From: Candidatus Uhrbacteria bacterium GW2011_GWE2_46_68
GTDB taxonomy: Bacteria; Patescibacteriota; Patescibacteriia; UBA9934; GWF2-40-263
Assembly (NCBI GenBank): GCA_001002765.1
Contig: LCMS01000001.1
Location: 4,662 to 68,661, forward strand
Reading direction: 5' to 3'
Length of the DNA: 64,000 nucleotides
In this document: positions 35,788 through 53,168 of the stretch, piece by piece
Numbering within the stretch: position 1 is the stretch's first letter
Layout: each line of letters begins with the position of its first letter
Translations under genes and position numbers: made by a program
The notes under the pieces: generated by a model
Seen by the model: the letters and a program-made list of their open reading frames with translations, nothing else
The model's database searches: none
Told to the model about the DNA's origin: nothing

Positions 35788-37497
35788 ATGATAACAGTGC
35801 AAGTTATGACGCAAGAACAATTTCACGAAGCGTTAGTGGAACATGGCACCATAACCGAAGATCAGTTTCAATCCGTGATAGACAGTCGTGAGGCAAAGGA
35901 GGCGGGTATAGGAGAAGCCTTGGTGGTACGAGGTGTGATCAGTGAGTCTCAACTCGGTCAAATGTTAGCCTGGTGGTACAAGGTGCCTTATTTTGATTTT
36001 GGAAAAGAAGGTGTTGATCATGAGATTACACGTTTGTTGCCAGAATCTTTTGTGCGCGAACAACGGGTGATTCCCGTTTCTCATCATGAGCAAGAAGGGT
36101 TCAAGGTCGCCACATCTGATCCGAAAAATATAGTCCTGCGTTGTTTGCTCGAAAAATATCTTCGTGATCGTGTGCAATTTGTGTTTGCGACCGACCGTCA
36201 AATTGCGGGGCATCTTTATCTTTTTCAGCAAAATCTCGGAGAAACAATCAAAAAGATTCTGAAACAACCTGCAGTTTTCGGAAACGCGACCGATACAAAG
36301 GCCGTCACCATTACTGACACTCTCATCAGTTTTGCCTATCAGACGGGTGTTTCCGATATTCATTTGGAATCAGGGGAAAAGATTACCATGGTGCGTTTCC
36401 GTGTGGATGGCGTTTTACATGATATGGCGGAAATCCCCCCCGAGATTCATCAAGCCGTGATTTCTCGTCTCAAGGTTATGGCCCGTCTTCCCACCGATGA
36501 AACCCGCAAAACCCAAGACGGTAAGATTTTATTTCAATCTCCTTGGCATGATGCCGTGGATATTCGTTTATCTCTCGTCCCAACAACACATGCGGAAAAT
36601 GCAGTTCTGCGTTTGCTCACAGACCGTAATAAGAATTTTTCTTTTCATGATATCGGTCTTCGTGAGCGTGATGGGGAAAAGGTTTTAAATGCCTCTCATC
36701 AACCCTGGGGCATGATTTTGGTTGCCGGTCCCACAGGTTCGGGAAAAACAACAACGCTTTACAGTGTGCTCAAGATGCTTAATGATCGTGATATTCATAT
36801 CGTGACCATTGAGGATCCCGTAGAGTATGACATGAAAGGCGTGACGCAAATTCAGGTGAATGAAAAAGTCGGTTTGACCTTTGCCAGCGGTCTACGTTCC
36901 ATTGTGCGCCAAGACCCTGACATTATTATGGTAGGAGAGATCCGCGATCGGGAAACCGCAGGTATTGCCATTAATGCCGCCATGACAGGACATTTGGTTT
37001 TATCCACCATTCATACCAATGATGCGGCCACGACTTTTGTCCGACTCGTCGATATGGGGGCGGAGGATTATCTTTTGGCATCCACCATCAACGTGGTGAT
37101 TGCACAAAGACTTATTCGACGCATTTGTCTCGGATGTATTCAGAGTGTATTTTTGACGCCATCACAAATACAAATTATCGAACGCATTCCCAAAGCCAAG
37201 GAATATCTTTTGAATATAAGCGAAAAGCAAAATCTTTCCGATGTACGTTTGTTTGCGGGGAAAGGGTGTCAGGCATGTCACCAAACGGGGTATAAAGATC
37301 GCGTGGGCATTTTCGAAGTGCTGGATGTAACCGAGAGAATTCGTCAAGGAATCATGGAAAGGAAGGAAGCAGAGACAATCAAAGAAATAGCTTTAAACGA
37401 TGGAATGACGACTATGCTACAAGACGGTTTTAACAAAGCTTTAGTCGGATTGACGACCATAGAGGAGGTACTTCATGAAACACAGACCACTTCATGA
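35788..37497 (+). CDS. pilB: type IV pilus assembly ATPase PilB/GspE family
   Basis: GspII_E N-terminal domain, Walker A VAGPTGSGKTT and a C-terminal tetracysteine (CLGC...CQAC). Confidence 0.85.
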   Translation: MITVQVMTQEQFHEALVEHGTITEDQFQSVIDSREAKEAGIGEALVVRGVISESQLGQMLAWWYKVPYFDFGKEGVDHEITRLLPESFVREQRVIPVSHHEQEGFKVATSDPKNIVLRCLLEKYLRDRVQFVFATDRQIAGHLYLFQQNLGETIKKILKQPAVFGNATDTKAVTITDTLISFAYQTGVSDIHLESGEKITMVRFRVDGVLHDMAEIPPEIHQAVISRLKVMARLPTDETRKTQDGKILFQSPWHDAVDIRLSLVPTTHAENAVLRLLTDRNKNFSFHDIGLRERDGEKVLNASHQPWGMILVAGPTGSGKTTTLYSVLKMLNDRDIHIVTIEDPVEYDMKGVTQIQVNEKVGLTFASGLRSIVRQDPDIIMVGEIRDRETAGIAINAAMTGHLVLSTIHTNDAATTFVRLVDMGAEDYLLASTINVVIAQRLIRRICLGCIQSVFLTPSQIQIIERIPKAKEYLLNISEKQNLSDVRLFAGKGCQACHQTGYKDRVGIFEVLDVTERIRQGIMERKEAETIKEIALNDGMTTMLQDGFNKALVGLTTIEEVLHETQTTS

Positions 37498-39043
37498 GAA
37501 GTTTTTTTTGACGCGTATTTTTTGTTTCCTGTTTTGGATATTGGTTTTGTTTTTACCTCATCGAAATGTTTTGGCGCTTGGGTTGTATTCTCCGACAATC
37601 GCGCTTGGGGAAGTGGAGGCAGGGGAAGATTACACAGGAACATTTCGCGTGGTACGTGAGGCGGGAGAAGTAGGAACAGGGAGCTTGTCGGTGGATGTGG
37701 AAATAACGGGTGACCAATGGATTTCGGTGACAGGTGAAGAATCTTTTGTCATGAGCGCAAGCGAAAACGCGTATGATTATACCTTTCTTTTTTCTCCAAA
37801 CGCCGTGCAAACAGGGGATTATCAAATACATTTTATTTTTTTTCTTGAGCCTTCCGGTTCACACGACGGGGGTGCGGGAGCTGTTGTTCGCGAGGGTGTA
37901 GAGGGAACGTTGACCTACAGAATGATCACTTCTTCCGAAACCGGAACAGGATCGGTTTCTTCAGGGCAAGGAACCTCATCCTCGTCTGGCACAGAAACAT
38001 CAAGCGGATCTTCTGACAGCGAAACTGAAGATGAAGGCACTTCGAGCCAAGAAGGTGGCACTGAAGAAGAAGACGATACGCAAATAAGCGACTCGCCGGA
38101 ACAAATCGAGGTTTCCGAAAGATCAGAATCGGAAACGGAGACGATTTGGACAGGGGATGGAACCGAAGGATCAAGAGAAAGCACAGACGCAGGGGATGCA
38201 GTGGCGACTGAATCGTCGGCAACATCTGAAGCGGATAGTGTGGATTTTCAGGATGTTGCAGAGTTTATGGGATTTTATGGACAAACAGGGTCGGGATTAT
38301 CCTCTCACGATCTTGATGGGGGTGGCAGCATAGGCCTATCTGATCTCTCTTTGCTTGTCTCGCAATGGACTTCGGACGAAGGGGGATTTACCGGCCTGTC
38401 CCCTGTGGAACCCGGAGAGCCACTTGACGAGGACGTTATTCTTTTCAAATTTCAGGTGGCGCATGCGGATAGGGAAAAGTTTTCCGTGATTTTATCAAGC
38501 GCACATAAAACCACAGACGACGAGGTTACCATGTACATTTTGGTGGATACGGGACAAGGAGGGGTGAATACGGCTGATCTTACGATCGACTATGATACGG
38601 AAAAATTACGGTTTATCGATGCGGAGATTGAGGGGTCGATTTTTTCCATTTTTCGTTCAAAACCACAGGAAATTGAAAGCGGAAAAATCAGCTTAACCGC
38701 TGCAACTCCCTGGTCTTTTGTGGGTACAAACGGTTTTGTGGCCACTTTGTATTTTTCTTTGATTGCAAAAGGAGAGGCTGCTTTGCGTTTTGAAGAAATC
38801 GAGTCATACGGAGAAGATGCTTATGAGCCAGGACAGGTTTTGGGAACGGATTTGATCGGCATAGTAGATAAAAAATCCACATCTCTTTCCGATACGACGG
38901 AGGAGGAAGTCAGAGCCGAGCAAATCCCGTCTTACTTTTTTCAAATCAATTTTTTAGAGATTATTCTTCTTTTGATATTGCTTATGGACACCATTGCTTT
39001 TTGGATTCTTTACCGTGACACAAAAGATCAACAATATGTTTAG
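37475..39043 (+). CDS. secreted acidic protein with dockerin-like and cohesin-like segments
   Basis: Signal peptide; D/E/S/T-rich linker; DLDGGGSIGLSDLSLLVSQW (dockerin-like); a C-terminal beta-sandwich-like segment; and a terminal TM. Confidence 0.45.
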   Translation: MKHRPLHEKFFLTRIFCFLFWILVLFLPHRNVLALGLYSPTIALGEVEAGEDYTGTFRVVREAGEVGTGSLSVDVEITGDQWISVTGEESFVMSASENAYDYTFLFSPNAVQTGDYQIHFIFFLEPSGSHDGGAGAVVREGVEGTLTYRMITSSETGTGSVSSGQGTSSSSGTETSSGSSDSETEDEGTSSQEGGTEEEDDTQISDSPEQIEVSERSESETETIWTGDGTEGSRESTDAGDAVATESSATSEADSVDFQDVAEFMGFYGQTGSGLSSHDLDGGGSIGLSDLSLLVSQWTSDEGGFTGLSPVEPGEPLDEDVILFKFQVAHADREKFSVILSSAHKTTDDEVTMYILVDTGQGGVNTADLTIDYDTEKLRFIDAEIEGSIFSIFRSKPQEIESGKISLTAATPWSFVGTNGFVATLYFSLIAKGEAALRFEEIESYGEDAYEPGQVLGTDLIGIVDKKSTSLSDTTEEEVRAEQIPSYFFQINFLEIILLLILLMDTIAFWILYRDTKDQQYV

Positions 39044-40058
39044 AGTATCTCTTATGAGTCGTGTGTTTCTTTTTTTGCTTTTTAGCGGTTGTTTGTTTGG
39101 GCATGCGGTTCCATCAAACGCCGCGGGAATCGGTGTTTCTCCATCTTCCATCAACACCGAAATTTTGGCGGGAGACAAAGTAGAGCAAACATTGTCACTT
39201 TCCCGTTTTGGAAATTCGGAAGAAATGCGGTTTTTGGTGCAAGTTTCGGAAGGCAATGATTTTATTGATTTGTTGGGGCAAGAAGAAGTGATCATCCCGT
39301 TTGGAGCCTCTCAAATATCGTTTACGTTTGCGATCAACGCGCAAAATCTTGGGGTGGGTGAGAAAATCGGAAACATTCAATTTTTGTCAGATATGCAAAT
39401 GCAAGATGGAAATTCCGGAAATCTTGTACAAACCGGGTTGGAGGTAAAAGTGAAGGCATCAATCGTCAACGCTTATGCCGTGGATGAAACTGTGGATGCG
39501 CAGCAAAATTGCAGTATTTTATCCGAGATCGCAGTTTCCAATATGCGCTTGAGTTATGCACGCGGTGGGGGGGGTGACACTTTAGATCTTACCTGGGATA
39601 TGCAAAATATCGGATCGGTTTCCATGAAGTCCGTGGCCTATGAGACAAACATTTTCAGAGACGGCGTATTGATTTCTTCCAGTCGTGAGGTCGCTGGAGG
39701 AGTTTTTGAAGCAGGTCAAACCATTTCACAAATCAAGTCTCAACATTTTTCTTCCTTACTCCCCGGTCTTTATCGTGTGGAATTAAAGTGGGGGGATAAG
39801 ACGCAAACCGTACAAATAACCGTGGAGCCGACGCTGTGGCAAGCGATATGGGATCAGGTATCGATTATCAGTGTTGCAGTGGGAGGACTGCTTGCTGCTG
39901 TCTTTGCTTTTCTTTTTATCAAAACAAAACTTTCTCTTTATGCGACAGTAAGGGCTTTGGGAAAAATGAAACGCAAAGTGGCCTCTGCGGCCACAAGCGG
40001 AGCAAAAAAAATAACACGCCGTCGTACGACAAAATTTTCCGCAAAAAGGGAAAAATAA
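39036..40058 (+). CDS. surface protein with a signal peptide, a C-terminal TM anchor and a basic tail; paralogue of 41066-42442
   Basis: MFRVSLMSRVFLFLLFSGC...AAGIGVSPSSINTEILAGDKVEQTL, ending with a TM plus a KR-rich tail. Confidence 0.5.
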   Translation: MFRVSLMSRVFLFLLFSGCLFGHAVPSNAAGIGVSPSSINTEILAGDKVEQTLSLSRFGNSEEMRFLVQVSEGNDFIDLLGQEEVIIPFGASQISFTFAINAQNLGVGEKIGNIQFLSDMQMQDGNSGNLVQTGLEVKVKASIVNAYAVDETVDAQQNCSILSEIAVSNMRLSYARGGGGDTLDLTWDMQNIGSVSMKSVAYETNIFRDGVLISSSREVAGGVFEAGQTISQIKSQHFSSLLPGLYRVELKWGDKTQTVQITVEPTLWQAIWDQVSIISVAVGGLLAAVFAFLFIKTKLSLYATVRALGKMKRKVASAATSGAKKITRRRTTKFSAKREK

Positions 40059-40171: not shown

Positions 40172-40687
40172 TCATTGAGAAAACGAAAAGACAAGGCCAA
40201 AGATGTGATCGCGCGTTACAGGTCCGTACTCCCTGGAGTCCGTACTCTCATCTCGGTTATCACCCAGTAAAAAATATTCATTTTCTTTCAAAATATCGAA
40301 TGTTTGAGCGCTGCCGTTCCAGTTTCTTGTGACGGTTCCTTCGGGAAGATAGGTCTCTCCAAGTAAAAATGTTTTTCCGTCCATTCCTGTGACAAACACT
40401 TGATTGAGCCTGATCGTGACTTGTTCTCCGGGAAGGCCGATCACTCGCTTGATGACCACCTCTTTAAGCGAAGGGATAGAGGCTTGCACCACATCTCCTC
40501 GATCGGGCGAGTGAAACAGAAGATCAAACTTGTTAATGAAAAAAACTTGCGAGTCAAAAAAATTCGGTTCCATGGAGACGCCATCCACTATGCCCGGTTC
40601 AACGACAAAAGAACGAATAAAGATAAATGCAAAGGTGATCGCACACGTCAATTTGAAAATTTTCCAAAGATAATCATTTCTGCTCAT
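40172..40687 (-). CDS. lepB: signal peptidase I
   Basis: VEPGIVDGVSMEPNF (catalytic Ser box) and GDVVQASIP / VIGLPGE boxes. Confidence 0.75.
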   Translation of the reverse strand: MSRNDYLWKIFKLTCAITFAFIFIRSFVVEPGIVDGVSMEPNFFDSQVFFINKFDLLFHSPDRGDVVQASIPSLKEVVIKRVIGLPGEQVTIRLNQVFVTGMDGKTFLLGETYLPEGTVTRNWNGSAQTFDILKENEYFLLGDNRDESTDSREYGPVTRDHIFGLVFSFSQ

Positions 40688-40722: not shown

Positions 40723-41073
40723 ATGAAGAATTTTTTTTGGGGACTGCAGGCGATCACGGAAAATTTTTTATTTTTTTCAAAACAACTTTCACAGTACCAA
40801 CTCTTTTGGGGATTTGCAGTCGGATTTTTTGTTGCCACACTTTTTTATGGATTCTTGATCACAGATCATCCCAAACAAGTGCCGACCGTTTTATTTCATG
40901 ATTCCTCCTCTTCCTTCCAAAAGATTTATCAGAGAAAAGAAGGTCAAGCCTATTCCACTTCTTTTTACGATTTTTCAAAAAAGGCCAATCGATTAAAGAC
41001 AGCTTTTCTTCTGGCCGGCATTCTTGCCATTGTATTAACACTCATTTCTTTACTAACCGTTTTTTATGGATAA
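40723..41073 (+). CDS. small membrane protein (116 aa)
   Basis: Two predicted TM segments. Confidence 0.3.
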   Translation: MKNFFWGLQAITENFLFFSKQLSQYQLFWGFAVGFFVATLFYGFLITDHPKQVPTVLFHDSSSSFQKIYQRKEGQAYSTSFYDFSKKANRLKTAFLLAGILAIVLTLISLLTVFYG

Positions 41074-42442
41074 AAAAAACAAACAAAAAAGAGTTTTTTC
41101 CGGAAGTTTGATTTTAGCCTCACTTTTTTTCTTGTTCTTTCCCTTCCTAACTCCTCTTCCCGCAAAGGCCATAGGAGCTTCTCCGTCAAGAATAAACAAT
41201 GTGACGGTTTTGCGAGGAACCGTGCAGACCCAATCCATTTCCATTGTTCGTGCGATATCGGAGGGGAATCGCGAAGTGACGGTCAATGTGACAAAGCGTG
41301 GCGAGTATGCTCATTACATCAATGCGCCAGAGTCCATTATTTTGCTTAGTGGGCAAAATAGTGTGATCTACACTTTTGATGTGGATGCAACCGATGCGGC
41401 GGTAGGGGAATATCAGGTTATTCTCTCTTTTCTTGTCGATCCGTATATCACAGCACAGACAGAAGCAACATCAGGAGGAATGAGCGCCGGTGTCGGATTT
41501 ATTACAGGTGTGGATATTCCGGTTACTTTTACGGTCTCCGGAGATCAAGTGGTGTCTTATGATGTTCAAAGTATGGGAATGGATGACACCGAAGTAAATA
41601 TGCCTGTTTTCCTCACCTTTAATATCCATAATACGGGGAATGTAGAATGGAAACCACAAAAAGTGGAATTGACATTTACTGACACATCCGATCCAGCCCA
41701 TGTGGTGACCGAAATTGTCGAAAGTGAAGATTTTCCCGTGGTAAAACCCAGTGCTGAAAGTGTTGTCACGGTTGTACAAATCGCATCTGTATTGATCGAG
41801 GGGACCTACGAGGTGAAAGCTAAGTTTTATTATGAAGGTCAGGTGGTGGCAGAGCTTTCTTCTTCTTCGCTTTTGACGGTTTATCCGGTCGGAACCCTCG
41901 CGCAATCAGGCGAGCTTTTGTCCGCAAGTACCAATAAGACATCGTATGAAAGAGGAGAAAAAGTGAATGCAAGTGTGATTTTCAAAAATACGGGTGAGGT
42001 AAAGGTAAACGGCACCTTGTACATAGATATGTATAAGGACGGCTCTTATGTGGATTTGCTCTTGGGAGAAACCTTGGCTGTTGATAGGGGAGACGAAGTA
42101 GTTTTTTCAAAAATTATAGAAACGGATGGCCCTGGAGATTATGTGGCTTCGGCTTATGTCAAATACAGCAATAAAAAAACAGAATCCATTGATTTGGCCT
42201 TTTCCGTTATTTCTGCCGGAGGAGTCGGTGATGCCTTGTCGTTTGCCAATTCTGTCTGGGGTTTGGCTATTTTGATCGGTATTATTGTTGTTATAGCTGT
42301 CATTATCAAAATAACGAGGAAAAAGAACGGAACGTCGCCCACCATCATTCCCCAAACGAACACCATCCCCACGATAAATCAAATGGAAGCGCATAAAGAA
42401 GAGCAAAATGTTTTACCAATCGATGAGACAAAGGAAAACTAA
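41066..42442 (+). CDS. surface protein with a signal peptide and a C-terminal TM anchor; paralogue of 39036-40058
   Basis: LPAKAIGASPSRINNVTVLRGTVQTQSISI at the N-terminus and a C-terminal TM (WGLAILIGIIVVIAVIIKITRKK). Confidence 0.5.
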   Translation: MDKKNKQKRVFSGSLILASLFFLFFPFLTPLPAKAIGASPSRINNVTVLRGTVQTQSISIVRAISEGNREVTVNVTKRGEYAHYINAPESIILLSGQNSVIYTFDVDATDAAVGEYQVILSFLVDPYITAQTEATSGGMSAGVGFITGVDIPVTFTVSGDQVVSYDVQSMGMDDTEVNMPVFLTFNIHNTGNVEWKPQKVELTFTDTSDPAHVVTEIVESEDFPVVKPSAESVVTVVQIASVLIEGTYEVKAKFYYEGQVVAELSSSSLLTVYPVGTLAQSGELLSASTNKTSYERGEKVNASVIFKNTGEVKVNGTLYIDMYKDGSYVDLLLGETLAVDRGDEVVFSKIIETDGPGDYVASAYVKYSNKKTESIDLAFSVISAGGVGDALSFANSVWGLAILIGIIVVIAVIIKITRKKNGTSPTIIPQTNTIPTINQMEAHKEEQNVLPIDETKEN

Positions 42443-42623
42443 AAATTGTGGATAACTTTTTTGTGCGATTTCGTTCTTATTTGTCGCAATAAATGCTATA
42501 ATTTAAGCAAAGAAAATATCGGTGAGAAGGACACCGAAAAAATTCATTATTTTCATTCAAAATTAAACAAAAATAAATGAAACAAAAGATGTAGAACTTT
42601 TTATTCTTTTACTCTTATTTTTT

Positions 42624-43526
42624 ATGCAGGAATCAAAGGCCCTCCATTATGTTTTGGGGCTATCGCTCGCCATGATCGCGCTTTTTGTGGTCGTCGCGCT
42701 TGTGATGATCAATACGCGTGCAAGTGACTCTGAAGTGACCATCAATAACGTATCACCGACCGTGGTTGAATCCGCTTTGGATGCAGGAGCTGCCATCACA
42801 CTTACCTCCGGAACAACAAAGGAGGTCGTAGCAACAGCTACCGTACAAGACACGAACGGAAATGCAGACATCGCGACTGTATTAATGGTTCTTTATCGTT
42901 CCGGAGCAACAGGGGGAACAGCTTGCTCATCGGACGACAACGATTGTTACCGCATCAACGAATGTGTATTGACAAATAATGCAGATCCTCTTCAAAAAGT
43001 GGCCACTTGCACTTTTGTCATGGATCACTATGCGGATTCCACCAGCGCGAGTGGACGTTATCCAGCAGAAAACTGGAAATTGTATGTGAGGGTGGCAGAT
43101 ACAGATGCCACAACAGGAGAATTGAATACGACGACAACCGAAGTAAATGATTTGTTATCACTTAGTATTCCTTCCGTAATTAACTTCGGTACAGTTAGTC
43201 TTGGGAACCAAGGGTATACAAACTTAACCATTGAAAACCAAGGAAACATGCGATCCGGAGTAAATATCTCGTCTTCAGATGATGATATGGATTGTACGGT
43301 TCGAGGCGCGATTCCGCGTGATAAACAAGAACATAAGGATGCCACTTTTGCGATTGGAGCTGGTACAGATTTGAGCGCAACTCCCACAGATACAACTTTG
43401 ACCATTGATTGGCAAGCAACAGGAACAGATACCTCGGACATTCTTTATATGGGAGTAGATGTTCTTCCGTCAGGTCTTGAGGGTGTTTGTACCATGGTGG
43501 ATACTTTGACAGCCTTTGCAAAGTAA
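42624..43526 (+). CDS. N-terminally anchored hypothetical protein; paralogue of 43859-44821
   Basis: Shared motifs with the paralogue, including NVSPTVVES/NVAPTVVSA, CSSDDNDCYRINECVL/CTADNNGCYVVSSCTL and LSLSIPS.IN.G. Confidence 0.5.
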   Translation: MQESKALHYVLGLSLAMIALFVVVALVMINTRASDSEVTINNVSPTVVESALDAGAAITLTSGTTKEVVATATVQDTNGNADIATVLMVLYRSGATGGTACSSDDNDCYRINECVLTNNADPLQKVATCTFVMDHYADSTSASGRYPAENWKLYVRVADTDATTGELNTTTTEVNDLLSLSIPSVINFGTVSLGNQGYTNLTIENQGNMRSGVNISSSDDDMDCTVRGAIPRDKQEHKDATFAIGAGTDLSATPTDTTLTIDWQATGTDTSDILYMGVDVLPSGLEGVCTMVDTLTAFAK

Positions 43527-43535: not shown

Positions 43536-43772
43536 ATGAATCAAAAATTACTCGCGGTGTTGGCGGTCGTTGTTGTCCTATTGAGTGGGTTGGTGTTAAT
43601 TGCGGTTACCAAGTCTGTGCAAACCGATGATCTTGAGGATGTCGGAAGTATTCTCGTCCCAGGATCGGTTGCAGGACAAGAATTGGAAAACCCACCCACA
43701 ACCGTAGGCTCCGAAGCGGTCGTGAACATTCCGCAAACCAGCACAACCGCGCAGGTGAAAATTGGTGAATAA
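43536..43772 (+). CDS. small membrane protein (78 aa)
   Basis: N-terminal TM (LLAVLAVVVVLLSGLVLIAV). Confidence 0.3.
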   Translation: MNQKLLAVLAVVVVLLSGLVLIAVTKSVQTDDLEDVGSILVPGSVAGQELENPPTTVGSEAVVNIPQTSTTAQVKIGE

Positions 43773-43858
43773 TGTAAAAGATACGGTAACAGAAAAACCG
43801 CTCTGTCATAAGGGCGGTTTTTGATTTCAAATTTTACTGTTATAATGGAGGTAATGTT

Positions 43859-47125: not shown

Positions 47126-47494
47126 ATGTCCAAAAAAGTGCTGATCGTCGAAGACGACAAATTTTTATCGGATATTTATCAGAACCAATTGCAAAAGGAA
47201 GGAATCGAAACTCAAGTGGCTGTGGACGGGAAGGAAGCGTTGGTTTATTTGGAAAAAGAAAACCCGAGGGTCATTATTCTTGACATGATTATGCCAAGAA
47301 TGAATGGATTTGATTTTCTTGAAGCTTTGCGAAAGAACAACGAATGGAATGATATTCCCGTGATCGTGCTCACAAATTTGGGACAAGAAGGGGACAAAGC
47401 GCGGTGTCATGAGCTGCGAGAGTGTACATATCTTGTCAAAACCGAGGTGGAGATCGATAGAGTCATCAAACTGATCAAAGAAAAAATAAGCTGA
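47126..47494 (+). CDS. single-domain response regulator (CheY-like receiver)
   Basis: MSKKVLIVEDD...VIILDMIMPRMNGFDFLEALR; start trimmed from the ORF track. Confidence 0.7.
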   Translation: MSKKVLIVEDDKFLSDIYQNQLQKEGIETQVAVDGKEALVYLEKENPRVIILDMIMPRMNGFDFLEALRKNNEWNDIPVIVLTNLGQEGDKARCHELRECTYLVKTEVEIDRVIKLIKEKIS

Positions 47495-47496: not shown

Positions 47497-48585
47497 ATGA
47501 AAGGAGGATTTAAAGGGGTGTGGGAACGCGTTGAGGAGATGCTTGAGCCGGTGGATAAAAGAGAAGTGGCAAACATGACCAAAAGTTTGGCCATTATGTT
47601 GCGATCCGGGGTTACGACCGTGGATGCACTTGATATTCTTGCCGAACAACATACCGGTAGAGTGAAAAGCGCGGTTAAACATATGGCGGAGCAGGTGCGT
47701 TTTGGGGAAACGTTTGCCGAAGCTGCAGAAAAAGAAAAAAACGTTTTTGACAAGGTGTTTATCGGTTCGGTTCGTATCGGAGAAAATTCCGGCACACTCG
47801 CGGAAAACCTCGAACATTTGTATACGCAAATGGATCGTTCGTTGATGATCAGGCAACAAGTGATTTCCGCCATGATTTATCCCGCCATTGTCGTATCTTT
47901 GATTGCGGTCGTTGGGTTTTGCATTGCGATTTTCGTGTTGCCGCAGATGGCGCAAACATTTGCGGCGCTTAAAACCGAGCTGCCATGGAGCACGCGGATG
48001 ATTATGGGGTTTGCCGATTTTTCCAAGAAGTACGGGCTTATCGTTTATCCGTTTTTTTTCCTTTTTAGCGCGTTTTGTGTTCTTTTTTTGAAACAAAAAT
48101 TTATCCATCGTTTTACGCATCCTTTCATTTTGCGCGTTCCTTTCCTTTTTTCTTTTTCCCGCGAATTGAACAATGCTCGTTTTTGCCGCTCACTTGGAAC
48201 TTTATTGGAAAATGGTGTTCCGATTCGAGAGGCCATGTTGTTGACCAGTACGCTTATGTCCAATGTTGTATTCGGCAAGCAGGTTTTTTATATGAGCCAG
48301 GAAGTAGAGTCTGGAAAATTATTGTCCGAATCCCTTCGCAAATATCATCGTTTGTTTCCCGCCATGATCGCAAGCATGGTGGCTGTGGGAGAGCGTTCGG
48401 GAGGAGTGGGAAAAATGCTTTTGTATTTGGCGGATTATTTTGAAAATCGTGTGGACGTGAAGTTTAAAAATTCTTCTTCCTTAATCGAGCCTGCTCTTCT
48501 CATTTTAGTGGGACTTGCCGTAGCATTTGTGGCGTTTTCGATTTTGTCTCCCATTTACGACATTACTTCTTCGTTATCGGGATAA
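47497..48585 (+). CDS. pilC: type IV pilus platform protein PilC/GspF family
   Basis: Two T2SSF-like repeats and 3-4 TM segments. Confidence 0.7.
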   Translation: MKGGFKGVWERVEEMLEPVDKREVANMTKSLAIMLRSGVTTVDALDILAEQHTGRVKSAVKHMAEQVRFGETFAEAAEKEKNVFDKVFIGSVRIGENSGTLAENLEHLYTQMDRSLMIRQQVISAMIYPAIVVSLIAVVGFCIAIFVLPQMAQTFAALKTELPWSTRMIMGFADFSKKYGLIVYPFFFLFSAFCVLFLKQKFIHRFTHPFILRVPFLFSFSRELNNARFCRSLGTLLENGVPIREAMLLTSTLMSNVVFGKQVFYMSQEVESGKLLSESLRKYHRLFPAMIASMVAVGERSGGVGKMLLYLADYFENRVDVKFKNSSSLIEPALLILVGLAVAFVAFSILSPIYDITSSLSG

Positions 48586-48620: not shown

Positions 48621-49637
48621 ATGTTTTTTCCTCATTTATCAGGTTTGGGTATAGACGTTTCCGAACATCACGTGCGTTTCGCGCTTGTTTCTTTTTTTGG
48701 AGGCGTCAAACATGTACAAGAGATTGTGCTTCCCGAAGGGTATGTTGTGGATGAAAAAATCGTCAAACAAGAAGAGTTGAAAGCATTGATACAAGAACAG
48801 TTAAAAACCATACGTCCGTTTATCGCTTCATCGGTACGCACGACGATTTTGGTACCGGAGTCCCGAGTGTTTTCCGCCGAAATACTTGTGGAATTGCACC
48901 AAGATGAGGAAATGGCTTTGGCCGAGGCTACGCGTCTTGCACAAAAGAAAATTCCCATTCCGTTTGGTCAAGCATATCTTTCCGCTTCTTGGGGTGAGAA
49001 AATTTCCGATCAAAAGCGTGTCAATATTTATACGTCTCCTCGGGAAGTGATTGATGGACTTTCCCATGTCTTTCTCACATTTTTTCCACACCTGATAGCC
49101 ATGGAAGTTAACAGTAAAGCGCTTCAACGCCTGCTCATTCTCTTTTCGAAATACAAACAACTTTTGGCAAAAAAAGATCAGTTGATTTGTATTGCCGACG
49201 TCGGACACAGTTGGTCTACCATTTCCGTATTCACTTCTTATGGTTCACAGTTGTTTTCTCGTACTCTGTCGCATGCGGGGCACTGCGAAGTCGTGGAAGG
49301 CAAAATGGTTCTTAGGCCCGAAGCCGCACAATTGATTGCAGAGACGATCACCGAAACCAAAGCTTTTTTTCATGTACAAAAGAGGCCTATAGCGGTTGCT
49401 GTCTTATGCGGGGTGGAGGCCATGCAAGAGCATGTGTTGGACGCCTGTCGTTTGGAAAAAGAAATTCCTGTTATTCTTGCCGGGGATATGGTGACGCTTC
49501 ATGGCGCGTCCAAAGATTCCATTCATTGTTTTGGAGCCGCAATCGGAGCTGCCTATCGTGCCCTGCGGCCGGGTCAGTATGCGTATCAACATAATTTTTT
49601 GTCCGGCATGCATGAAGAGAAAACACCGGATAAATGA
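48621..49637 (+). CDS. pilM: PilM-like actin-fold pilus assembly protein
   Basis: GLGIDVSEHHVRFALV at the N-terminus and its position after pilC. Confidence 0.5.
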   Translation: MFFPHLSGLGIDVSEHHVRFALVSFFGGVKHVQEIVLPEGYVVDEKIVKQEELKALIQEQLKTIRPFIASSVRTTILVPESRVFSAEILVELHQDEEMALAEATRLAQKKIPIPFGQAYLSASWGEKISDQKRVNIYTSPREVIDGLSHVFLTFFPHLIAMEVNSKALQRLLILFSKYKQLLAKKDQLICIADVGHSWSTISVFTSYGSQLFSRTLSHAGHCEVVEGKMVLRPEAAQLIAETITETKAFFHVQKRPIAVAVLCGVEAMQEHVLDACRLEKEIPVILAGDMVTLHGASKDSIHCFGAAIGAAYRALRPGQYAYQHNFLSGMHEEKTPDK

Positions 49638-49643
49638 ACGGAT

Positions 49644-50084
49644 ATGCGTGAGGAAAAACGAGGCTTCACTATCATTGAGCTTATTGTTGTTTTAGGGATC
49701 ATCAGTCTTTTGTGTACACTTGCGTTTCGTTTTTCTCTTACAGGCATAAGAGAAAATGAAGTGTCGGGAGCGGTGCAAGGTTTTGTTTTTGCCGCACGAC
49801 AAGCCCAGATATTGTCGCGAGCGGGAGAAGGGAATGCGCCTTGCGGTGTGTATGCGCAAACAGGTGGAATCACGGTGTTTCAGGGGGAAAGTTATGCGAC
49901 GCGGGACACAAGCCTGGATCGCATTTTTCCGGTAGCTGACAGCGTTTTTTTTACAGGAGACACGGAAATCATCTTTGCCGATTTTACCGGAAAACCCGAT
50001 GTCGGAGGGGTGTTGGTGGTATCTTCCTCTGGTGTTTCGTCCGTATCAGTCACAATCAATGCGGAGGGCATGGTGGAGTATTAG
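49644..50084 (+). CDS. prepilin-type N-terminal cleavage/methylation domain protein (minor pilin)
   Basis: KRGFTIIELIVVLGIISLL. Confidence 0.7.
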   Translation: MREEKRGFTIIELIVVLGIISLLCTLAFRFSLTGIRENEVSGAVQGFVFAARQAQILSRAGEGNAPCGVYAQTGGITVFQGESYATRDTSLDRIFPVADSVFFTGDTEIIFADFTGKPDVGGVLVVSSSGVSSVSVTINAEGMVEY

Positions 50085-50095
50085 ATATCGAAAAT

Positions 50096-51487
50096 ATGTT
50101 TGCGTACGAAAAAAAACAAGAAGGATTTATTCTCGTGGAAGTATTGGTCACCATGGCACTTTTGGCATTGTTTTTTTCAGGTATTACCAGCGCGTGGGTA
50201 AATGGATTGCAATCAGGACGTGTGGCAGGTGATCGTACGCGCGCACTTTTTTTGGCTGAGGAAGGTCTGGCAGCCGTTCAAAATCTACGTGACGCCGGTT
50301 TTACAAATCTGACAAACGGCACTCACGGCATCAATGATTCAGGTTTGCAGTGGGCATTTGCAGGGTCATCGGACGCGACAGATATTTTTACAAGAGAAGT
50401 GACAATCTCTTCGATCGACGCATCCACAAAAAATATAACCAGCACCGTTTCTTGGGAAAAGTCTGATGGGGTCATATCTTCCGTTGCACTCACCTCATAT
50501 TTTACCAATTGGATCACAGCGACCTCCGGAGGATGGCTGACTCCATCACAGACAGGGGTTCTCAACCTTTCCAGCACACAAGACGGATTGCGTGTTCAAG
50601 TTTCTGGAGATTATGCTTATATCGTGCGCGCAAGCGGAAGCCCGGATTTTTTCATAGTGAATATCACAAATCCTTCCGCACCAGCCCTTGTCGGTTCTTT
50701 GTCGGTTGGAAACACCGTCACAGATCTAGTTGTTTCGGGTTCTTACGCTTATGTGACCGGACAAAATAATTCGGCCGAATTAAGAATCATAAATATTACT
50801 AACCCAGCTTCCCCGACCATTGTTGGAACCTATAATGCACCGGGAAACGCTAACGCTACATCTGTCTTTGTAAGCGGTACAAACGCGTATGTTGTGCGCG
50901 CATCAAGCAGTGATCGTGAGTTTCTTGCTGTGAATATCACCAATCCTGCTATTCCTGTACTGCTTGGATCTTTGGATTTAGGAGATCAGGGGAACGATGT
51001 GGCGGTGTCGGGTTCTTATGCCTATGTGGCATCAAACAGCAATACACAAGAGGTACAGATAGTGAATATAACGAATCCAGCTGTTCCGACCTTGGCGGGC
51101 AGTTATAATCTTTCAGGCACATCCAATTCTTCTTCCATCGCGGTAAACAGTAACCTTGTTTATTTTTCCAATAATGACACGCTCTATATTTTGGACGATA
51201 CCACGCACGGCTCGCCTGTATGGCAAGGCTCTACCGGTCTTGGCGGCGTGATCAATGACATCGCTTTTGACGGGAGCGGTTTATCGCTCATTTTTGCGGC
51301 CACATCTTTTTCCACACGCGAGTGTGAAGTTGTGAATGTGTATGATCCCACAGCCCCCGTTTTGATCGGCTATGTGAATATCACAGGCTCATCGGCTAAC
51401 GGAGTTGCCTATGATCCCGTATTGGATCAAGTGGTGATGGCTTGCACAGACAATTCCTCGGAACTTATCACCATAACGCATCCTTAG
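50096..51487 (+). CDS. minor pilin with a C-terminal LVIVD-repeat beta-propeller-like domain
   Basis: Prepilin N-terminus GFILVEVLVTMALLALFF, then at least 5 repeats of YAYVxxxxxxxExxIVNITNPAxPxLVGS. Confidence 0.6.
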   Translation: MFAYEKKQEGFILVEVLVTMALLALFFSGITSAWVNGLQSGRVAGDRTRALFLAEEGLAAVQNLRDAGFTNLTNGTHGINDSGLQWAFAGSSDATDIFTREVTISSIDASTKNITSTVSWEKSDGVISSVALTSYFTNWITATSGGWLTPSQTGVLNLSSTQDGLRVQVSGDYAYIVRASGSPDFFIVNITNPSAPALVGSLSVGNTVTDLVVSGSYAYVTGQNNSAELRIINITNPASPTIVGTYNAPGNANATSVFVSGTNAYVVRASSSDREFLAVNITNPAIPVLLGSLDLGDQGNDVAVSGSYAYVASNSNTQEVQIVNITNPAVPTLAGSYNLSGTSNSSSIAVNSNLVYFSNNDTLYILDDTTHGSPVWQGSTGLGGVINDIAFDGSGLSLIFAATSFSTRECEVVNVYDPTAPVLIGYVNITGSSANGVAYDPVLDQVVMACTDNSSELITITHP

Positions 51488-51489
51488 GT

Positions 51490-52008
51490 GTGAAAAGATT
51501 ATTTCAAAATAAAAAAAGAGGTTTTACGCTCATTGAGGTTGTTTTATATGTCGCGATTGCGGGTATGGTGGTTTTTGCCCTCGGGTTTCTTGTGAAGGAA
51601 TCCGGAGAAACCCGTTTGCGTCAAAGGGTTATGGCCGAGGTGGAGCAACAAGGCCTTCTTATTTCGGATCATATCTCGCAAGCTATAAGGAACGCGGCTT
51701 CGATTACTACTCCTTCCGCAGGAAATACGACTTCTTCGCTCACACTTGCTTATGCGGACGTGTTAAAAAACCCAACAGTATTTGATGTATCTGCAGATGC
51801 CGTACAGATCACCGAGGGGGCGGAATCTCCAATACCTCTTACCAATACACGTGTTTTGGTGACTGATTTTTCTTTTCACAATCTTTCCCTTGCTTCCACA
51901 CCCGGTAGTGTGCAATTTTCATTTACGTTAAACTACGTCCTTTCTTCGGATGATGCCACGCGTTTTCAATATTCAAGAACATTTTATGGTGCGGCCAGTT
52001 TGCGATAA
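51490..52008 (+). CDS. minor pilin (prepilin-type)
   Basis: A GTG start gives VKRLFQNKKRGFTLIEVVLYVAIAGMVVFALG; the ORF-track ATG would overlap the upstream gene. Confidence 0.55.
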   Translation: MKRLFQNKKRGFTLIEVVLYVAIAGMVVFALGFLVKESGETRLRQRVMAEVEQQGLLISDHISQAIRNAASITTPSAGNTTSSLTLAYADVLKNPTVFDVSADAVQITEGAESPIPLTNTRVLVTDFSFHNLSLASTPGSVQFSFTLNYVLSSDDATRFQYSRTFYGAASLR

Positions 52009-52432
52009 ACATGGATTTGTCCTTCCAAAGCTCCACCGACAGTGGAGCAAAGGAGGATTTGCCACACTTGCCGGCATATTGATGGTAGGCGCAATCGGAG
52101 CGGCAACCGCAACTTTAGTCTTGTTTTTTGGATCGGATTTTTCCCGTTCTGTCTTAAGTGCGCAACAATCTTATGAAGCAAAAGCGCTTGCTCGCGCTTG
52201 CGCCGATACGGCTCTTTTGGCAATACATAACAATATCTCTTACACAGGTTCTGATTCACTTACTTTAGGTCAGGGTACTTGTGAGTATGTGATCACCGTT
52301 ACCGGCCCCACGAGCCGTTTGATTCAATCCTCCGGCACCGTGGGAGAGGTGACAAGAAATATAGAGATTTCCATATCGCGTTTGATGCCCACCATTAGCA
52401 TTTCTTCCTGGCAAGATGTGGATGAGTTTTGA
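51986..52432 (+). CDS. PilX-like minor pilin
   Basis: QWSKGGFATLAGILMVGAIGAATATLVLFF at the N-terminus; the start is uncertain. Confidence 0.45.
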   Translation: MVRPVCDKHGFVLPKLHRQWSKGGFATLAGILMVGAIGAATATLVLFFGSDFSRSVLSAQQSYEAKALARACADTALLAIHNNISYTGSDSLTLGQGTCEYVITVTGPTSRLIQSSGTVGEVTRNIEISISRLMPTISISSWQDVDEF

Positions 52433-52440
52433 TGAGGGGG

Positions 52441-52597: not shown

Positions 52598-52691
52598 GAA
52601 GTTGTTTTTTGGGTAAGACCGCCTAAAACACAAACAAAAAATCGCCTCTGGAGCCATATCCGCGAGGCGATTTTTGTAGGAAACGAGGAAA

Positions 52692-53168
52692 CTATCGTGT
52701 CACACTGATAGCGGCGCCGTCCGGATCACAAGCCCCAACTCTTACTGTCCCGTTGGAGTTGCGGATCATATAATAATCGGTTTCAGTGGTTAACCCACCT
52801 GCCGGATCCAGAGGTACCGTGCCAAGATAGCCATCAGTGACGAGTTCGGTGAGATCCACACAAGCGGCTTGCGTGGTTTGAGCGGTACATCCGGTATCGC
52901 AACCAGAGACATTAGTGCCAATCGTATAGCCACTTCCTGTGACCAAAGCTGTGACCGTGGCGGGATAAGCACCATCATTGTCCACTTGAAAGGTTTTGAG
53001 GGCTGCAGCGACGTTTTCCACATCAGCCTGTCGTCTGGCGTCACGCGCATCCGCAAAGCGTTGCGCAGGATTTAGAGAAACAAATACCACTCCGGCCAAG
53101 ATTGCGATAATGGCGATCACAATCAAAAGCTCAATGAGCGTAAAACCGCGTTTGCTGTTTTTTTGCAT
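52692..53168 (-). CDS. pilA: type IV pilin (major pilin candidate)
   Basis: MQKNSKRGFTLIELLIVIAIIAILAGVV class III signal; 158 aa. Confidence 0.8.
   Translation of the reverse strand: MQKNSKRGFTLIELLIVIAIIAILAGVVFVSLNPAQRFADARDARRQADVENVAAALKTFQVDNDGAYPATVTALVTGSGYTIGTNVSGCDTGCTAQTTQAACVDLTELVTDGYLGTVPLDPAGGLTTETDYYMIRNSNGTVRVGACDPDGAAISVTR

What the first reader, a model, noticed from the sequence alone, without database searches (positions are those of the whole stretch)
35788..53168. Secretin-less type IV pilus locus interrupted by secreted or surface proteins, signal peptidase I and a two-component system
The locus encodes PilB, PilC, PilM, four prepilin-type proteins and a divergently oriented major pilin. 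It also encodes, between pilB and pilC, a dockerin/cohesin-like acidic secreted protein. Two further pairs of paralogous membrane-anchored surface proteins lie there, at 39036 with 41066 and at 42624 with 43859. LepB lies there as well, together with a PAS histidine kinase and a CheY-like single-domain regulator. No PilQ, PilN, PilO, PilT or PilD gene lies inside the locus. That fits a monoderm (Com-like) pilus. The embedded surface proteins and dedicated sensing module suggest a regulated adhesion or host-attachment apparatus, not just DNA uptake.
Basis: partly seen in the sequence, partly recalled or inferred. Interest (0 to 1): 0.6.

Follow-up and report, generated by a model that had tools for sequence, protein, structure and literature searches.

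The report
Type IV pilus plus Ig-protein cassette
In a groundwater Candidatus Uhrbacteria (CPR) genome, an ordinary secretin-less type IV pilus operon is split by a separately conserved, unnamed cassette (signal peptidase I, exported Ig-fold proteins, a two-component sensor) that probably builds a second surface fibre or adhesin complex.

Summary
The region holds PilB, PilC, PilM, three canonical prepilins plus one atypical one, and a divergent major pilin. No secretin, PilT or PilD lies anywhere in the window. The organism is a Candidatus Uhrbacteria bacterium (CPR), where secretin-less type IV pili (T4P) are already known.

The interpretation needs correcting. The genes between pilB and the kinase are not pilus parts. 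They form their own cassette: A0/A, lepB on the opposite strand, B, C, D1, E, D2. This cassette recurs at 25-45% identity in at least 13 Patescibacteria lineages, usually with a kinase and/or CheY-like regulator. It often sits far from any T4P gene, next to ATP-synthase, ribosomal, uvrC or gas-vesicle genes. In one lineage pilB-pilC is intact downstream of it.

- D is a Sec-exported protein with two Ig-like domains and six cysteines. Its family has no Pfam model yet 2,471 clusters.
- D has its own conserved extended -10 promoter.
- A and C are multi-Ig proteins with C-terminal membrane anchors.

The best analogue is the Pam donor-strand-exchange pilus reported in a 2026 preprint for other CPR classes. 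Membership could not be tested. Adjacency to T4P genes recurs in three lineages, which hints at coupling through the sensor.

The parts
35788..37497 (+). pilB: type IV pilus (T4P) assembly ATPase with an N-terminal MshEN domain. Its stop overlaps the start of the next gene by 23 nt.
   Evidence: T2SSE E=4.5e-122 and MshEN E=5.4e-12. Annotated 'Type II secretion system protein E' in Ca. Uhrbacteria.
37475..39043 (+). A0: signal peptide, A-type Ig-like N-domain, acidic Ser/Thr/Glu/Asp linker, dockerin-like motif, cohesin-like domain and a C-terminal transmembrane (TM) anchor.
   Evidence: TM helices at 10-28 and 494-512; 93 Asp+Glu against 27 Lys+Arg. Cohesin 19.7 bits, sub-threshold. N-domain similar to A. 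Orthologues in L005, L013, L023 and L026.
39036..40058 (+). A: signal peptide, Ig-like ectodomain and C-terminal TM anchor. Candidate anchored chaperone or anchor protein.
   Evidence: TM helices at 4-22 and 271-289. Orthologues sit next to lepB in L004, L005, L023 and L031. No Pfam or NCBIfam match.
40172..40687 (-). lepB: P-type signal peptidase I (Ser38 in GVSMEP, Lys80 in KRVIG, GDNRDESTDSR box). It lies on the opposite strand and is a conserved member of the cassette.
   Evidence: Peptidase_S26 E=2.6e-32. Same position and orientation in L004-L008, L010, L013, L015, L016, L021, L023, L024, L026 and L031-L034.
40723..41073 (+). B: 116-aa two-TM protein. Its start is 35 nt head-to-head with lepB, and it is the most conserved small cassette member.
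   Evidence: TM helices at 28-46 and 95-113. Alignment A4. 27 homologues, all from the same kind of locus.
41066..42442 (+). C: signal peptide, three tandem Ig-like (ASH/PapD-like/CARDB-type) domains, a C-terminal TM anchor and a disordered cytoplasmic tail.
   Evidence: AF2 pLDDT 80.7. Foldseek hits to HYDIN ASH domains, macroglobulin (MG) domains and FN3. Weak DUF7507, CARDB, WxLIP_HBD and PapD-like matches among family members. 23 homologues.
42494..42536 (+). Putative promoter (extended -10 TGCTATAAT at 42494-42502) and a conserved 5'-UTR hairpin (42520-42536) upstream of D1.
   Evidence: The intergenic region is 95% identical to L001, whereas the flanking proteins are 78-89% identical. 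TGnTATAAT is present in 7 of 17 C-D gaps across lineages, against a shuffle mean of 0.19 and a maximum of 3.
42624..43526 (+). D1: Sec-exported two-Ig-domain protein with 6 Cys. Candidate major structural subunit.
   Evidence: AF2 pLDDT 87.7. Foldseek hits to integrin thigh/calf domains, RbmA, CsuE and FimH. The family has 2,471 clusters. Conserved (S/T)-Q-A|D cleavage motif.
43536..43772 (+). E: 78-aa protein with an N-terminal TM helix, a low-complexity spacer and a conserved C-terminal beta-hairpin-like motif.
   Evidence: TM helix at 6-24. Found directly after the first D gene in 16 loci, with the C-terminal pattern TSVxVxxxDNVxTSVxV.
43793..43822 (+). Terminator-like hairpin with a U-tract after E. 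A second extended -10 (TGTTATAAT, 43838-43846) follows, before D2.
   Evidence: MFE -23.4 kcal/mol, z=-3.1. Listed by the terminator scan. Conserved in L001, where one stem position changes from a G-U to an A-U pair.
43859..44821 (+). D2: paralogue of D1 (40% identity).
   Evidence: BLASTP E=9e-75. 6 Cys.
44827..47106 (+). Sensor histidine kinase: two TM helices flanking a ~255-aa extracytoplasmic domain, then HAMP, PAS, HisKA and HATPase.
   Evidence: Pfam. TM helices at 22-40 and 298-316. Shorter orthologues follow the cassette in L007, L021, L025, L026, L032 and L034.
47126..47494 (+). CheY-like single-domain response regulator.
   Evidence: Response_reg E=9.4e-23. Orthologues follow the cassette in L005, L007, L011, L015, L021, L025 and L034.
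47497..48585 (+). pilC: T4P platform protein.
   Evidence: T2SSF E=1.5e-56, two domains.
48621..49637 (+). pilM.
   Evidence: PilM_2 E=1.6e-9.
49644..52432 (+). Four minor pilin-like genes: 49644-50084; 50096-51487 (prepilin N-terminus fused to an LVIVD beta-propeller); 51442-52008; and 51950-52432 (atypical, no Glu5).
   Evidence: N_methyl motifs and LVIVD E=3.1e-27. Motif scan.
52692..53168 (-). Major pilin (PilA/PulG-like), divergently oriented.
   Evidence: N_methyl E=2e-10. GspG- and ComGC-like N-terminus. A 62% identical orthologue abuts the cassette in L005.

Best explanation
The region is a composite of two surface-appendage gene sets in a Candidatus Uhrbacteria (CPR, monoderm) genome.

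**Set 1** is a conventional secretin-less type IV pilus (T4P): PilB, PilC, PilM, minor pilins including one tipped with a beta-propeller, and the major pilin.

**Set 2** is an independently conserved, CPR-specific cassette: A0-A-lepB-B-C-D1-E-D2, usually with a histidine kinase and a CheY-like regulator. In this lineage it lies between pilB and pilC.

The proposed mechanism for set 2 has four steps. All are inferred.
1. All cassette proteins are exported by Sec.
2. The linked P-type signal peptidase I cleaves the D subunits at a conserved (S/T)-Q-A|D site.
3. The released two-Ig-domain, disulfide-bonded D subunits are transcribed from their own strong promoter. They assemble on the cell surface into a fibre or adhesin array.
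4. The membrane-anchored multi-Ig proteins A, C and A0 and the small anchored protein E hold or assemble that structure.

The most specific version of this mechanism is an usher-less donor-strand-exchange pilus of the Pam type. I rate that sub-claim at about 0.35.

The kinase-CheY pair is proposed to report on, or regulate, this surface structure. Where the cassette adjoins T4P genes, the pair may couple it to pilus activity.

Shown: gene content, predicted folds, independent conservation of the cassette, family size, and the promoter motif. Inferred: processing by this LepB, polymerisation, the anchoring roles, and regulatory coupling to the T4P.
For: **Independent conservation of the cassette.**
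- The order lepB(-)/B/C/D/E(/D) recurs in L004-L008, L010, L013, L015, L021, L023-L026 and L031-L034. Protein identity is 25-45% and locus GC ranges from 28% to 52%.
- T4P genes are absent from the flanks in L004, L006/17/18, L008, L033 and L034.
- pilB-pilC is intact downstream of the cassette in L007/L012/L025.

**Export.**
- N-terminal hydrophobic segments are present on all members, and C-terminal TM helices on A0, A and C.
- The D signal peptide is conserved: H8, G12, and A at -1 in 107 of 124 sequences.

**Folds.**
- D1 is two Ig-like domains (pLDDT 87.7). The highest query-normalised TM-scores among the listed hits (0.36) are to the two-domain chaperone-usher tip adhesins CsuE and FimH, and RbmA ranks 5th.
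- C is three Ig-like domains plus a TM anchor.
- Weak ASH, PapD-like and WxLIP matches appear among family members.

**Structural-subunit signature.**
- D1 and D2 each have 6 Cys; A0, A and C have 0-2.
- The family has 2,471 clusters at 50% identity.
- Architectures include 22 giant proteins with the D module at the extreme C-terminus, which is adhesin-like.
- A perfect extended -10 lies upstream of D in 7 of 17 lineages, against 0.19 expected.
- A terminator-like hairpin follows E.

**Pam analogy.**
- The Pam operon of Ca. Mycosynbacter amalyticus has two-domain Ig-like pilins with 2-3 cysteine pairs, C-terminally TM-anchored chaperones, a TM-anchored RbmA-like tether and neighbouring ATP-synthase genes, and it is exclusive to CPR (bioRxiv 10.64898/2026.03.03.709456).
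- The cassette sits next to the atp operon in L006/L017.
Against:
- The D-family profile finds nothing in the PDB sequence copy. It is unknown whether 25PZ and 25QA are in that copy.
- The Pam paper reports pilins mainly in Saccharimonadia and Microgenomatia. It mentions no signal peptidase, no small B- or E-like proteins and no two-component system.
- All fold matches are to generic Ig-like domains with low TM-scores (at most 0.36).
- The C-terminal domain of D looks like a complete ASH-type domain with about 8 strands, not an obviously truncated one.
- Nothing shows polymerisation.
- lepB may simply be the genome's only housekeeping signal peptidase.
- In the window lineage, pilB overlaps A0, and D2 through the minor pilins are tightly packed on one strand. 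Co-expression with T4P genes is therefore likely here.
Confidence: 0.6

Rival explanations
1. One reading: the embedded proteins are accessory components, adhesins or cargo of the type IV pilus (T4P) itself. The whole 17-kb locus is then one regulated attachment machine.
For: - pilB overlaps A0 by 23 nt, and D2 through the minor pilins are packed with gaps of 36 nt or less on one strand.
- The cassette plus two-component system abuts T4P genes in three divergent lineages: the window lineage, L007/L012/L025 and L005.
- A single-domain CheY is the kind of regulator that controls T4P motors elsewhere (PilG/PilH, from general knowledge).
Against: - The cassette occurs without nearby T4P genes in at least five lineages.
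- pilB-pilC is contiguous in L007/L025.
- None of the cassette proteins has a prepilin signal.
- The cassette has its own signal peptidase I and its own conserved promoter.
Confidence: 0.15
2. The cassette encodes a non-filamentous cell-envelope scaffold that is S-layer-like or similar to a WxL/WxLIP surface complex. TM-anchored stalk proteins (A, C) would hold a canopy of secreted Ig proteins (D).
For: - The architecture of signal peptide, Ig domains and C-terminal TM anchor resembles archaeal surface glycoproteins. The Haloferax S-layer protein 7ptp_A appears among the hits to C (rank 47).
- Two C-family members weakly match WxLIP_HBD.
- A strong promoter for D fits an abundant envelope protein.
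Against: - The matches are generic Ig-fold matches.
- Paralogous D copies, giant proteins ending in a D module and the small E protein fit a modular fibre or adhesin system better than a lattice.
- The cassette was found in only 5 of the species-representative genomes scanned. That scan was limited to exact peptide patterns.
Confidence: 0.15
3. There is no common function. A housekeeping lepB happens to lie beside fast-evolving surface-protein genes, and in this lineage the block landed inside the T4P operon by rearrangement.
For: - LepB is a standard P-type enzyme.
- All cassette proteins are annotated 'hypothetical'.
- CPR genomes are rich in lineage-specific surface proteins.
Against: - Gene order, orientation and even the ~35-nt lepB/B head-to-head spacing are kept across lineages down to 25-45% identity and from 28% to 52% GC.
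- B and E occur only in this context.
Confidence: 0.07

Closest known systems
Secretin-less type IV pili of CPR/Patescibacteria (for example Saccharibacteria TM7i and TM7x: PMC9894109, PMC12206443) and of monoderm bacteria generally
   Same: PilB, PilC, PilM, a major pilin and several minor pilins with class III (GFxxxE) signal peptides. No secretin, consistent with a single membrane.
   Different: PilT, PilD and PilN/O are not in this 64-kb window. pilB is separated from pilC by 10 kb of non-T4P genes. One minor pilin carries an LVIVD beta-propeller.
Pam pili of Candidatus Mycosynbacter amalyticus (Troman et al., bioRxiv 10.64898/2026.03.03.709456)
   Same: - Exclusive to CPR.
- Every component is a Sec-signal-bearing Ig-fold protein.
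- Paralogous two-domain pilins with 2-3 cysteine pairs.
- Partner proteins with C-terminal TM anchors in place of periplasmic chaperones, and no usher.
- ATP-synthase genes nearby in some genomes.
- An RbmA-like fold among the matches.
   Different: - Homology is untested.
- Pam was reported in Saccharimonadia and Microgenomatia, not the Parcubacteria group.
- The Pam operon description has no signal peptidase I, no B- or E-type small membrane proteins and no kinase/CheY.
- D subunits (about 29 kDa mature) are smaller than PamB (38.7 kDa) and PamA (55.3 kDa).
- No PamT-like single-domain tip protein was identified.
Chaperone-usher pili (Pap/Fim/Csu) of diderm bacteria
   Same: Sec-exported Ig-like subunits. 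The best query-normalised TM-scores of D1 among the listed hits (0.36) are to the two-domain tip adhesins CsuE and FimH. Family members show PapD-like/ASH-type sequence signals.
   Different: No outer membrane and no usher. The candidate chaperones are membrane-anchored and have three domains rather than two. Donor-strand exchange is not demonstrated.
tapA-sipW-tasA operon of Bacillus subtilis and archaeal bundling pili (PMC9245690)
   Same: A signal peptidase I gene is embedded among genes for secreted fibre subunits and an accessory or anchor protein.
   Different: SipW is an ER/archaeal-type peptidase, whereas this one is the P-type (Ser38/Lys80). TasA and AbpA are single jelly-roll domains (Pfam PF12389, per PMC9245690), whereas D is two Ig-like domains. 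The D family shows no Pfam match above curated thresholds and none to that family.
WxL / WxL-interacting-protein (DUF916-DUF3324) surface loci of Enterococcus and Lactobacillus
   Same: Two paralogous secreted proteins, one protein with Ig domains and a C-terminal TM anchor, and one small anchored protein. Two C-family members weakly hit WxLIP_HBD (best E=7e-4).
   Different: No WxL domain and no LPXTG motif. The matches are far below threshold. The phylum and envelope are different.

Membership tests
Type IV pilus system (monoderm/CPR type) | GspE/PilB-family assembly ATPase | tested here: met
   T2SSE E=4.5e-122
Type IV pilus system (monoderm/CPR type) | GspF/PilC platform protein | tested here: met
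   T2SSF, two domains, E=1.5e-56
Type IV pilus system (monoderm/CPR type) | Major and minor pilins with a prepilin (N-methylation) signal | tested here: met
   N_methyl in four proteins. G[F]T[LI]IE motifs at 49644, 51442 and 52692.
Type IV pilus system (monoderm/CPR type) | Prepilin peptidase PilD (A24) | tested here: inconclusive
   Absent among the window ORFs of at least 130 aa that were scanned. The rest of the genome was not available.
Type IV pilus system (monoderm/CPR type) | Absence of a secretin (expected for a single-membrane envelope) | tested here: met
   No secretin domain in any scanned ORF.
Pam pilus system (Troman et al. 2026) | Sequence or structural homology of the subunit to PamA/PamB/PamE | not testable with these tools
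Pam pilus system (Troman et al. 2026) | Two-domain Ig-like pilin with a Sec signal peptide and paired cysteines | tested here: met
   AF2 model of D1 with two beta-sandwich domains, pLDDT 87.7. 6 Cys, five of them in columns conserved in at least 90% of aligned homologues. Conserved SQA|D site.
Pam pilus system (Troman et al. 2026) | Polymerisation by donor-strand exchange through the inter-domain linker | not testable with these tools
   No multimer modelling was available. The linker (residues 171-190) and the C-terminal strands are among the better-conserved segments, but that is not diagnostic.
Pam pilus system (Troman et al. 2026) | PapD/FimC-like chaperones carrying a C-terminal TM helix | tested here: inconclusive
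   A and C have Ig-like ectodomains and a C-terminal TM helix. Only weak PapD-like/ASH signals were found. C has three domains, not two.
Pam pilus system (Troman et al. 2026) | Restricted to CPR bacteria | tested here: met
   Every named homologue of B, C and D is from Patescibacteria, the Parcubacteria group, Kaiserbacteria or Uhrbacteria.
Chaperone-usher pili | Outer-membrane usher | tested here: not met
   No usher domain in the cassette or the window.
TasA/SipW-type fibres | TasA/camelysin jelly-roll subunit and an ER-type SipW peptidase | tested here: not met
   D is two Ig-like domains. No TasA-family match appears in the Pfam output. The peptidase has the P-type Ser/Lys motifs (read from the sequence).

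The most novel reading that the evidence does not exclude
The cassette is a previously unrecognised, widespread branch of usher-less donor-strand-exchange pili in the Parcubacteria-group CPR. It would be related to or convergent with Pam pili. Its distinctive features would be a dedicated signal peptidase I, a small membrane-anchored beta-hairpin protein (E) acting as strand donor or anchor, and a kinase-CheY pair that couples the state of this fibre to the retractable type IV pilus. Together these would make a two-filament host-capture device.
Probability: 0.25. Interest if true: 0.8.

Novelty: new variant of a known kind. Interest (0 to 1): 0.6.

Why it matters
CPR bacteria are thought to live attached to host cells, and how they attach is largely unknown beyond type IV pili (T4P). 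This work makes three points.

- A large protein family (2,471 clusters at 50% identity) has no Pfam or NCBIfam model and belongs to a conserved operon with a linked signal peptidase and sensor. If it builds a second surface fibre, the very recent Pam-pilus discovery would extend from Saccharimonadia and Microgenomatia to the Parcubacteria group.
- The cassette would add new parts to that system: LepB, B, E and the two-component system.
- The recurrent placement beside T4P genes offers a testable hypothesis for cross-talk between two appendages.

The finding also has a practical use. 'T4P loci' in CPR genomes should not be read as single machines, because this one is a mosaic.

Tried and rejected
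- **TasA/SipW-type fibre** (prompted by the embedded lepB). Rejected: D is two Ig-like domains, not a jelly-roll, and the peptidase is P-type.
- **D and C as diverged paralogues.** hhalign gives a probability of 2%.
- **PDB sequence searches** with the D and C profiles. Nothing useful came back.
- **Reaching the M. amalyticus pam operon through the B family.** B has only 27 homologues, none from Saccharimonadia. The preprint's supplement contains no sequences.
- **Locus scan with the full C alignment.** It failed because no stretch was conserved enough, so a trimmed alignment was used.
- **Word-index search on D.** It returned only 11 homologues, which understated the family badly.
- **Generic promoter and terminator scan.** Uninformative overall: 17 promoter-like sites against 31 expected. 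Only a targeted look at the C-D gap was informative.
- **P0023, a C-D fusion.** Considered as Rosetta-stone evidence. It keeps both the C-terminal TM helix of C and the signal peptide of D, so it may simply be a read-through gene call.
- **tRNA and Rfam scans of the window.** Empty.

Full report
**1. What is in the window**

Type IV pilus (T4P) genes:
- pilB 35788-37497: T2SSE E=4.5e-122, with an MshEN domain.
- pilC 47497-48585: two T2SSF domains.
- pilM 48621-49637.
- Three canonical prepilins at 49644, 50096 and 51442. The second is fused to an LVIVD beta-propeller.
- An atypical pilin-like gene at 51950.
- A divergent major pilin at 52692-53168 on the minus strand.

The intervening genes on the plus strand are:
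- A0, 37475-39043, 522 aa.
- A, 39036-40058.
- B, 40723-41073.
- C, 41066-42442.
- D1, 42624-43526.
- E, 43536-43772.
- D2, 43859-44821.
- A HAMP-PAS histidine kinase, 44827-47106.
- A CheY-like regulator, 47126-47494.

lepB (40172-40687) lies on the minus strand between A and B.

No secretin, PilT, PilD or PilN/O appears among the ORFs of at least 130 aa in the window that were scanned. tblastn with PilB finds only itself.

Exact-sequence look-ups place the window in Candidatus Uhrbacteria bacterium GW2011_GWF2_46_218 / GWE2_46_68, also deposited as a TPA assembly with locus tags DEP34_00155-00240. This organism belongs to the Parcubacteria group of the CPR. Most of the cassette proteins are annotated 'hypothetical' there.

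**2. The embedded genes are a separate, conserved cassette**

I fetched contigs that carry homologues of D, C and B. I then mapped every ORF onto the window proteins. The same block recurs:

[A0/A-type] - lepB (opposite strand) - B - C - D - E - (second D)

It appears in at least 13 distinct lineages. Protein identity is 25-45% and locus GC ranges from 28% to 52%. Fine details are kept: the lepB and B start codons stand head-to-head 31-38 nt apart, and the 3' ends of A and lepB converge.

The surrounding genes differ from lineage to lineage.
- **No T4P genes nearby:**
  - uvrC follows the cassette in L004.
  - The ATP-synthase operon lies upstream and the rplC operon downstream in Kaiserbacteria-type contigs (L006/L017/L018; L008 shows the ribosomal operon).
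  - A sigma factor follows in L033.
  - Gas-vesicle genes follow in L034.
- **Cassette upstream of an intact T4P operon:** L007/L012 and L025 read cassette-HK-RR-pilB-pilC-minor pilin-LVIVD pilin, so pilB and pilC are contiguous there.
- **Cassette beside the major pilin only:** in L005 the cassette and regulator abut the major pilin gene, with no other T4P genes between.

A kinase and/or CheY-like regulator follows the cassette in most lineages: the window, L005, L007, L011, L015, L021, L025, L026, L032 and L034. In L023 the kinase lies upstream.

Three conclusions follow.
- The cassette is an evolutionary unit of its own.
- The two-component system belongs with the cassette at least as much as with the pilus.
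- The window arrangement, with pilB stranded upstream, is specific to this lineage. It is conserved only in close relatives (L001, L002, L014) whose cassette proteins are 75-97% identical.

Adjacency to T4P genes in three divergent lineages is still more than I would expect by chance for a gene set occupying about 1% of a genome. That estimate is my inference. Shared ancestry of the arrangement is an alternative explanation.

**3. What the cassette proteins are**

None has a Pfam or NCBIfam match above threshold.

*D1 and D2*
- They are 40% identical.
- With a 13-sequence alignment, AF2 gives D1 a confident model (pLDDT 87.7) of an N-terminal helix followed by two beta-sandwich domains.
- Foldseek against the PDB returns only Ig-type domains: integrin thigh/calf, V. 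cholerae RbmA at rank 5, and HYDIN ASH domains. The highest query-normalised TM-scores among the listed hits (0.36) are to the two-domain chaperone-usher tip adhesins CsuE and FimH.
- Residues 170-250 weakly match the 'choice-of-anchor D' and ASH models.
- Each D protein has six cysteines, whereas A0, A and C have at most two.

*The D family*
- An exhaustive profile search shows that the family is large: 2,471 clusters at 50% identity with E of 1e-3 or better, and 1,024 with E of 1e-30 or better. The word-index tool had found only 11.
- Among the best 156 members, 110 are stand-alone proteins of about 300-350 aa. Another 24 carry C-terminal extensions. In 22, an N-terminal extension of up to about 1,900 aa (proteins of up to ~2,200 aa) precedes a D module at the extreme C-terminus.
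- The named members are all from Patescibacteria.
- The signal peptide is unusually conserved: H8, G12 and a (S/T)-Q-A|D motif with Ala at -1 in 107 of 124 sequences. The mature N-terminus carries a near-invariant (I/V)xNxxPxV motif, which AF2 leaves unstructured in the monomer.

*C, A and A0*
- C (pLDDT 80.7) is a signal peptide, three tandem Ig-like domains, a TM helix and a disordered tail. Its hits are ASH, macroglobulin (MG) and FN3 domains.
- Family members weakly touch DUF7507, CARDB, HYDIN-type Ig, WxLIP_HBD and PapD-like models.
- A, A0 and C share only the first ~95-aa domain.
- A0 adds an acidic linker and sub-threshold cohesin and dockerin signals. These recur in orthologues.

*B, E and LepB*
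- B is a conserved two-TM protein found only in this context.
- E is a 72-82-aa protein with an N-terminal TM helix. Its C-terminus has a conserved two-strand pattern, TSVxVxxxDNVxTSVxV. It directly follows the first D gene in 16 loci.
- LepB is a normal P-type signal peptidase I, with Ser38 and Lys80.

**4. Expression signals**

The only sizeable gap in the cassette lies before D1.
- The gap is 95% identical to the relative L001, although the flanking proteins are only 78-89% identical.
- It holds a perfect extended -10, TGCTATAAT, at 42494-42502.
- The same TGnTATAAT motif lies in the C-D gap of 7 of 17 lineages. Shuffles give a mean of 0.19 and a maximum of 3 in 5,000 trials. The leaders are 54-179 nt long.
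- After E there is a hairpin with a U-tract at 43793-43822 (z=-3.1). It is conserved in L001, where one stem position changes from a G-U to an A-U pair.
- A second TGTTATAAT follows the hairpin, just before D2.

This layout is a strong private promoter, then the subunit gene, then a small partner gene, then an attenuating terminator. It suits a highly expressed structural subunit. D2, the kinase, the regulator, pilC, pilM and the minor pilins then follow with gaps of 36 nt or less, so in this lineage they are probably co-transcribed (inference).

**5. Comparison with what is known**

Secretin-less T4P are well documented in CPR bacteria (for example PMC9894109 and PMC12206443). The T4P part of this locus is therefore an ordinary member of a known kind.

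The closest described system for the cassette is the Pam pilus of the saccharibacterium Ca. Mycosynbacter amalyticus (bioRxiv 10.64898/2026.03.03.709456). Its features are:
- Sec-exported two-domain Ig-like pilins (PamA, PamB, PamE) with 2-3 cysteine pairs, joined by donor-strand exchange.
- PapD/FimC-like chaperones that carry a C-terminal TM helix (PamC, PamD).
- A TM-anchored RbmA-like tether (PamR).
- No usher.
- Exclusive to CPR.
- Conserved proximity to ATP-synthase genes.

The cassette matches this description at the level of architecture, including the ATP-synthase neighbourhood in L006/L017. There are limits to the match.
- I could not obtain Pam sequences or coordinates, so homology is untested.
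- The preprint reports Pam pilins mainly in Saccharimonadia and Microgenomatia.
- It does not mention a signal peptidase, B- or E-like proteins, or a two-component system.
- The tapA-sipW-tasA analogy (PMC9245690) fails on both the fold and the peptidase type.
- The WxL/WxLIP analogy is only architectural.

**6. Verdict**

This is a monoderm T4P with exported surface proteins and a sensor. It is wrong in treating the whole region as one apparatus.
- The best-supported reading (0.6) is a mosaic of a standard T4P operon and an independently conserved cassette that depends on Sec and signal peptidase I and encodes a second surface structure.
- The Pam-like donor-strand-exchange version of that reading is about 0.35.
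- The recurrent T4P adjacency and the CheY-type regulator make regulatory coupling between the two systems a reasonable but untested idea.

Noticed in passing
window 50096-51487 (orthologues L007:18863-21389, L025:9290-11583): A minor pilin with a canonical prepilin N-terminus is fused to an LVIVD-repeat beta-propeller (LVIVD E=3.1e-27). The orthologues exceed 760 aa. It looks like a pilus-borne adhesin.
   Followed up: partly
window 6000-12500: This stretch is 57-62% GC in a genome that is otherwise 42-47% GC. It encodes proteins packed with MopE-type putative metal-binding repeats: 8004-9857 has 6 repeats and 10220-12955 has 11. The cause could be a compositional effect of the repeats or foreign origin.
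   Followed up: no
window 24764-30264: An ECF-type sigma factor (24764-25441) is followed by a DUF5667 protein (25374-26294) and a 1,285-aa protein with no Pfam match (26407-30264).
   Followed up: no
window 40687/40723; L004 3898/3936; L005 8162/8193: The lepB and B start codons are head-to-head only 31-38 nt apart in distant lineages. That is too short for two ordinary divergent promoters, so the promoters must lie inside the neighbouring coding sequences or the genes share a control region.
   Followed up: partly
L034:15430-19109: In one Patescibacteria contig the cassette, a kinase and two CheY-like regulators are followed by gas-vesicle genes (GvpA PF00741 and a GvpN-like AAA_5 protein). 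This is unexpected for CPR bacteria.
   Followed up: no
window 35788-37497, PilB residues 64-147: PilB carries an MshEN domain (E=5.4e-12). From general knowledge, this is the c-di-GMP-binding module of MshE-type ATPases. No diguanylate cyclase was seen in the window.
   Followed up: no
L004:4554-6509; L010:5051-8152; P0107, P0139, P0156: D modules occur fused to other domains. Examples are C-terminal 'GYAWGEQTGWISF' repeats and N-terminal extensions of roughly 750 to 1,900 aa. In L006 an RCC1-repeat protein sits between C and D.
   Followed up: partly
window 43838-43861: A second perfect extended -10 (TGTTATAAT) lies only ~12 nt before the D2 start codon and overlaps a GGAGG Shine-Dalgarno-like site. 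The two signals cannot both serve the same transcript.
   Followed up: no
window 2816-4615 (minus strand) and L028:5379-6815: A PGA_cap (poly-gamma-glutamate capsule synthesis)/Memo fusion protein lies in the window. A PGA_cap gene also sits next to a distant C-like protein in L028.
   Followed up: no
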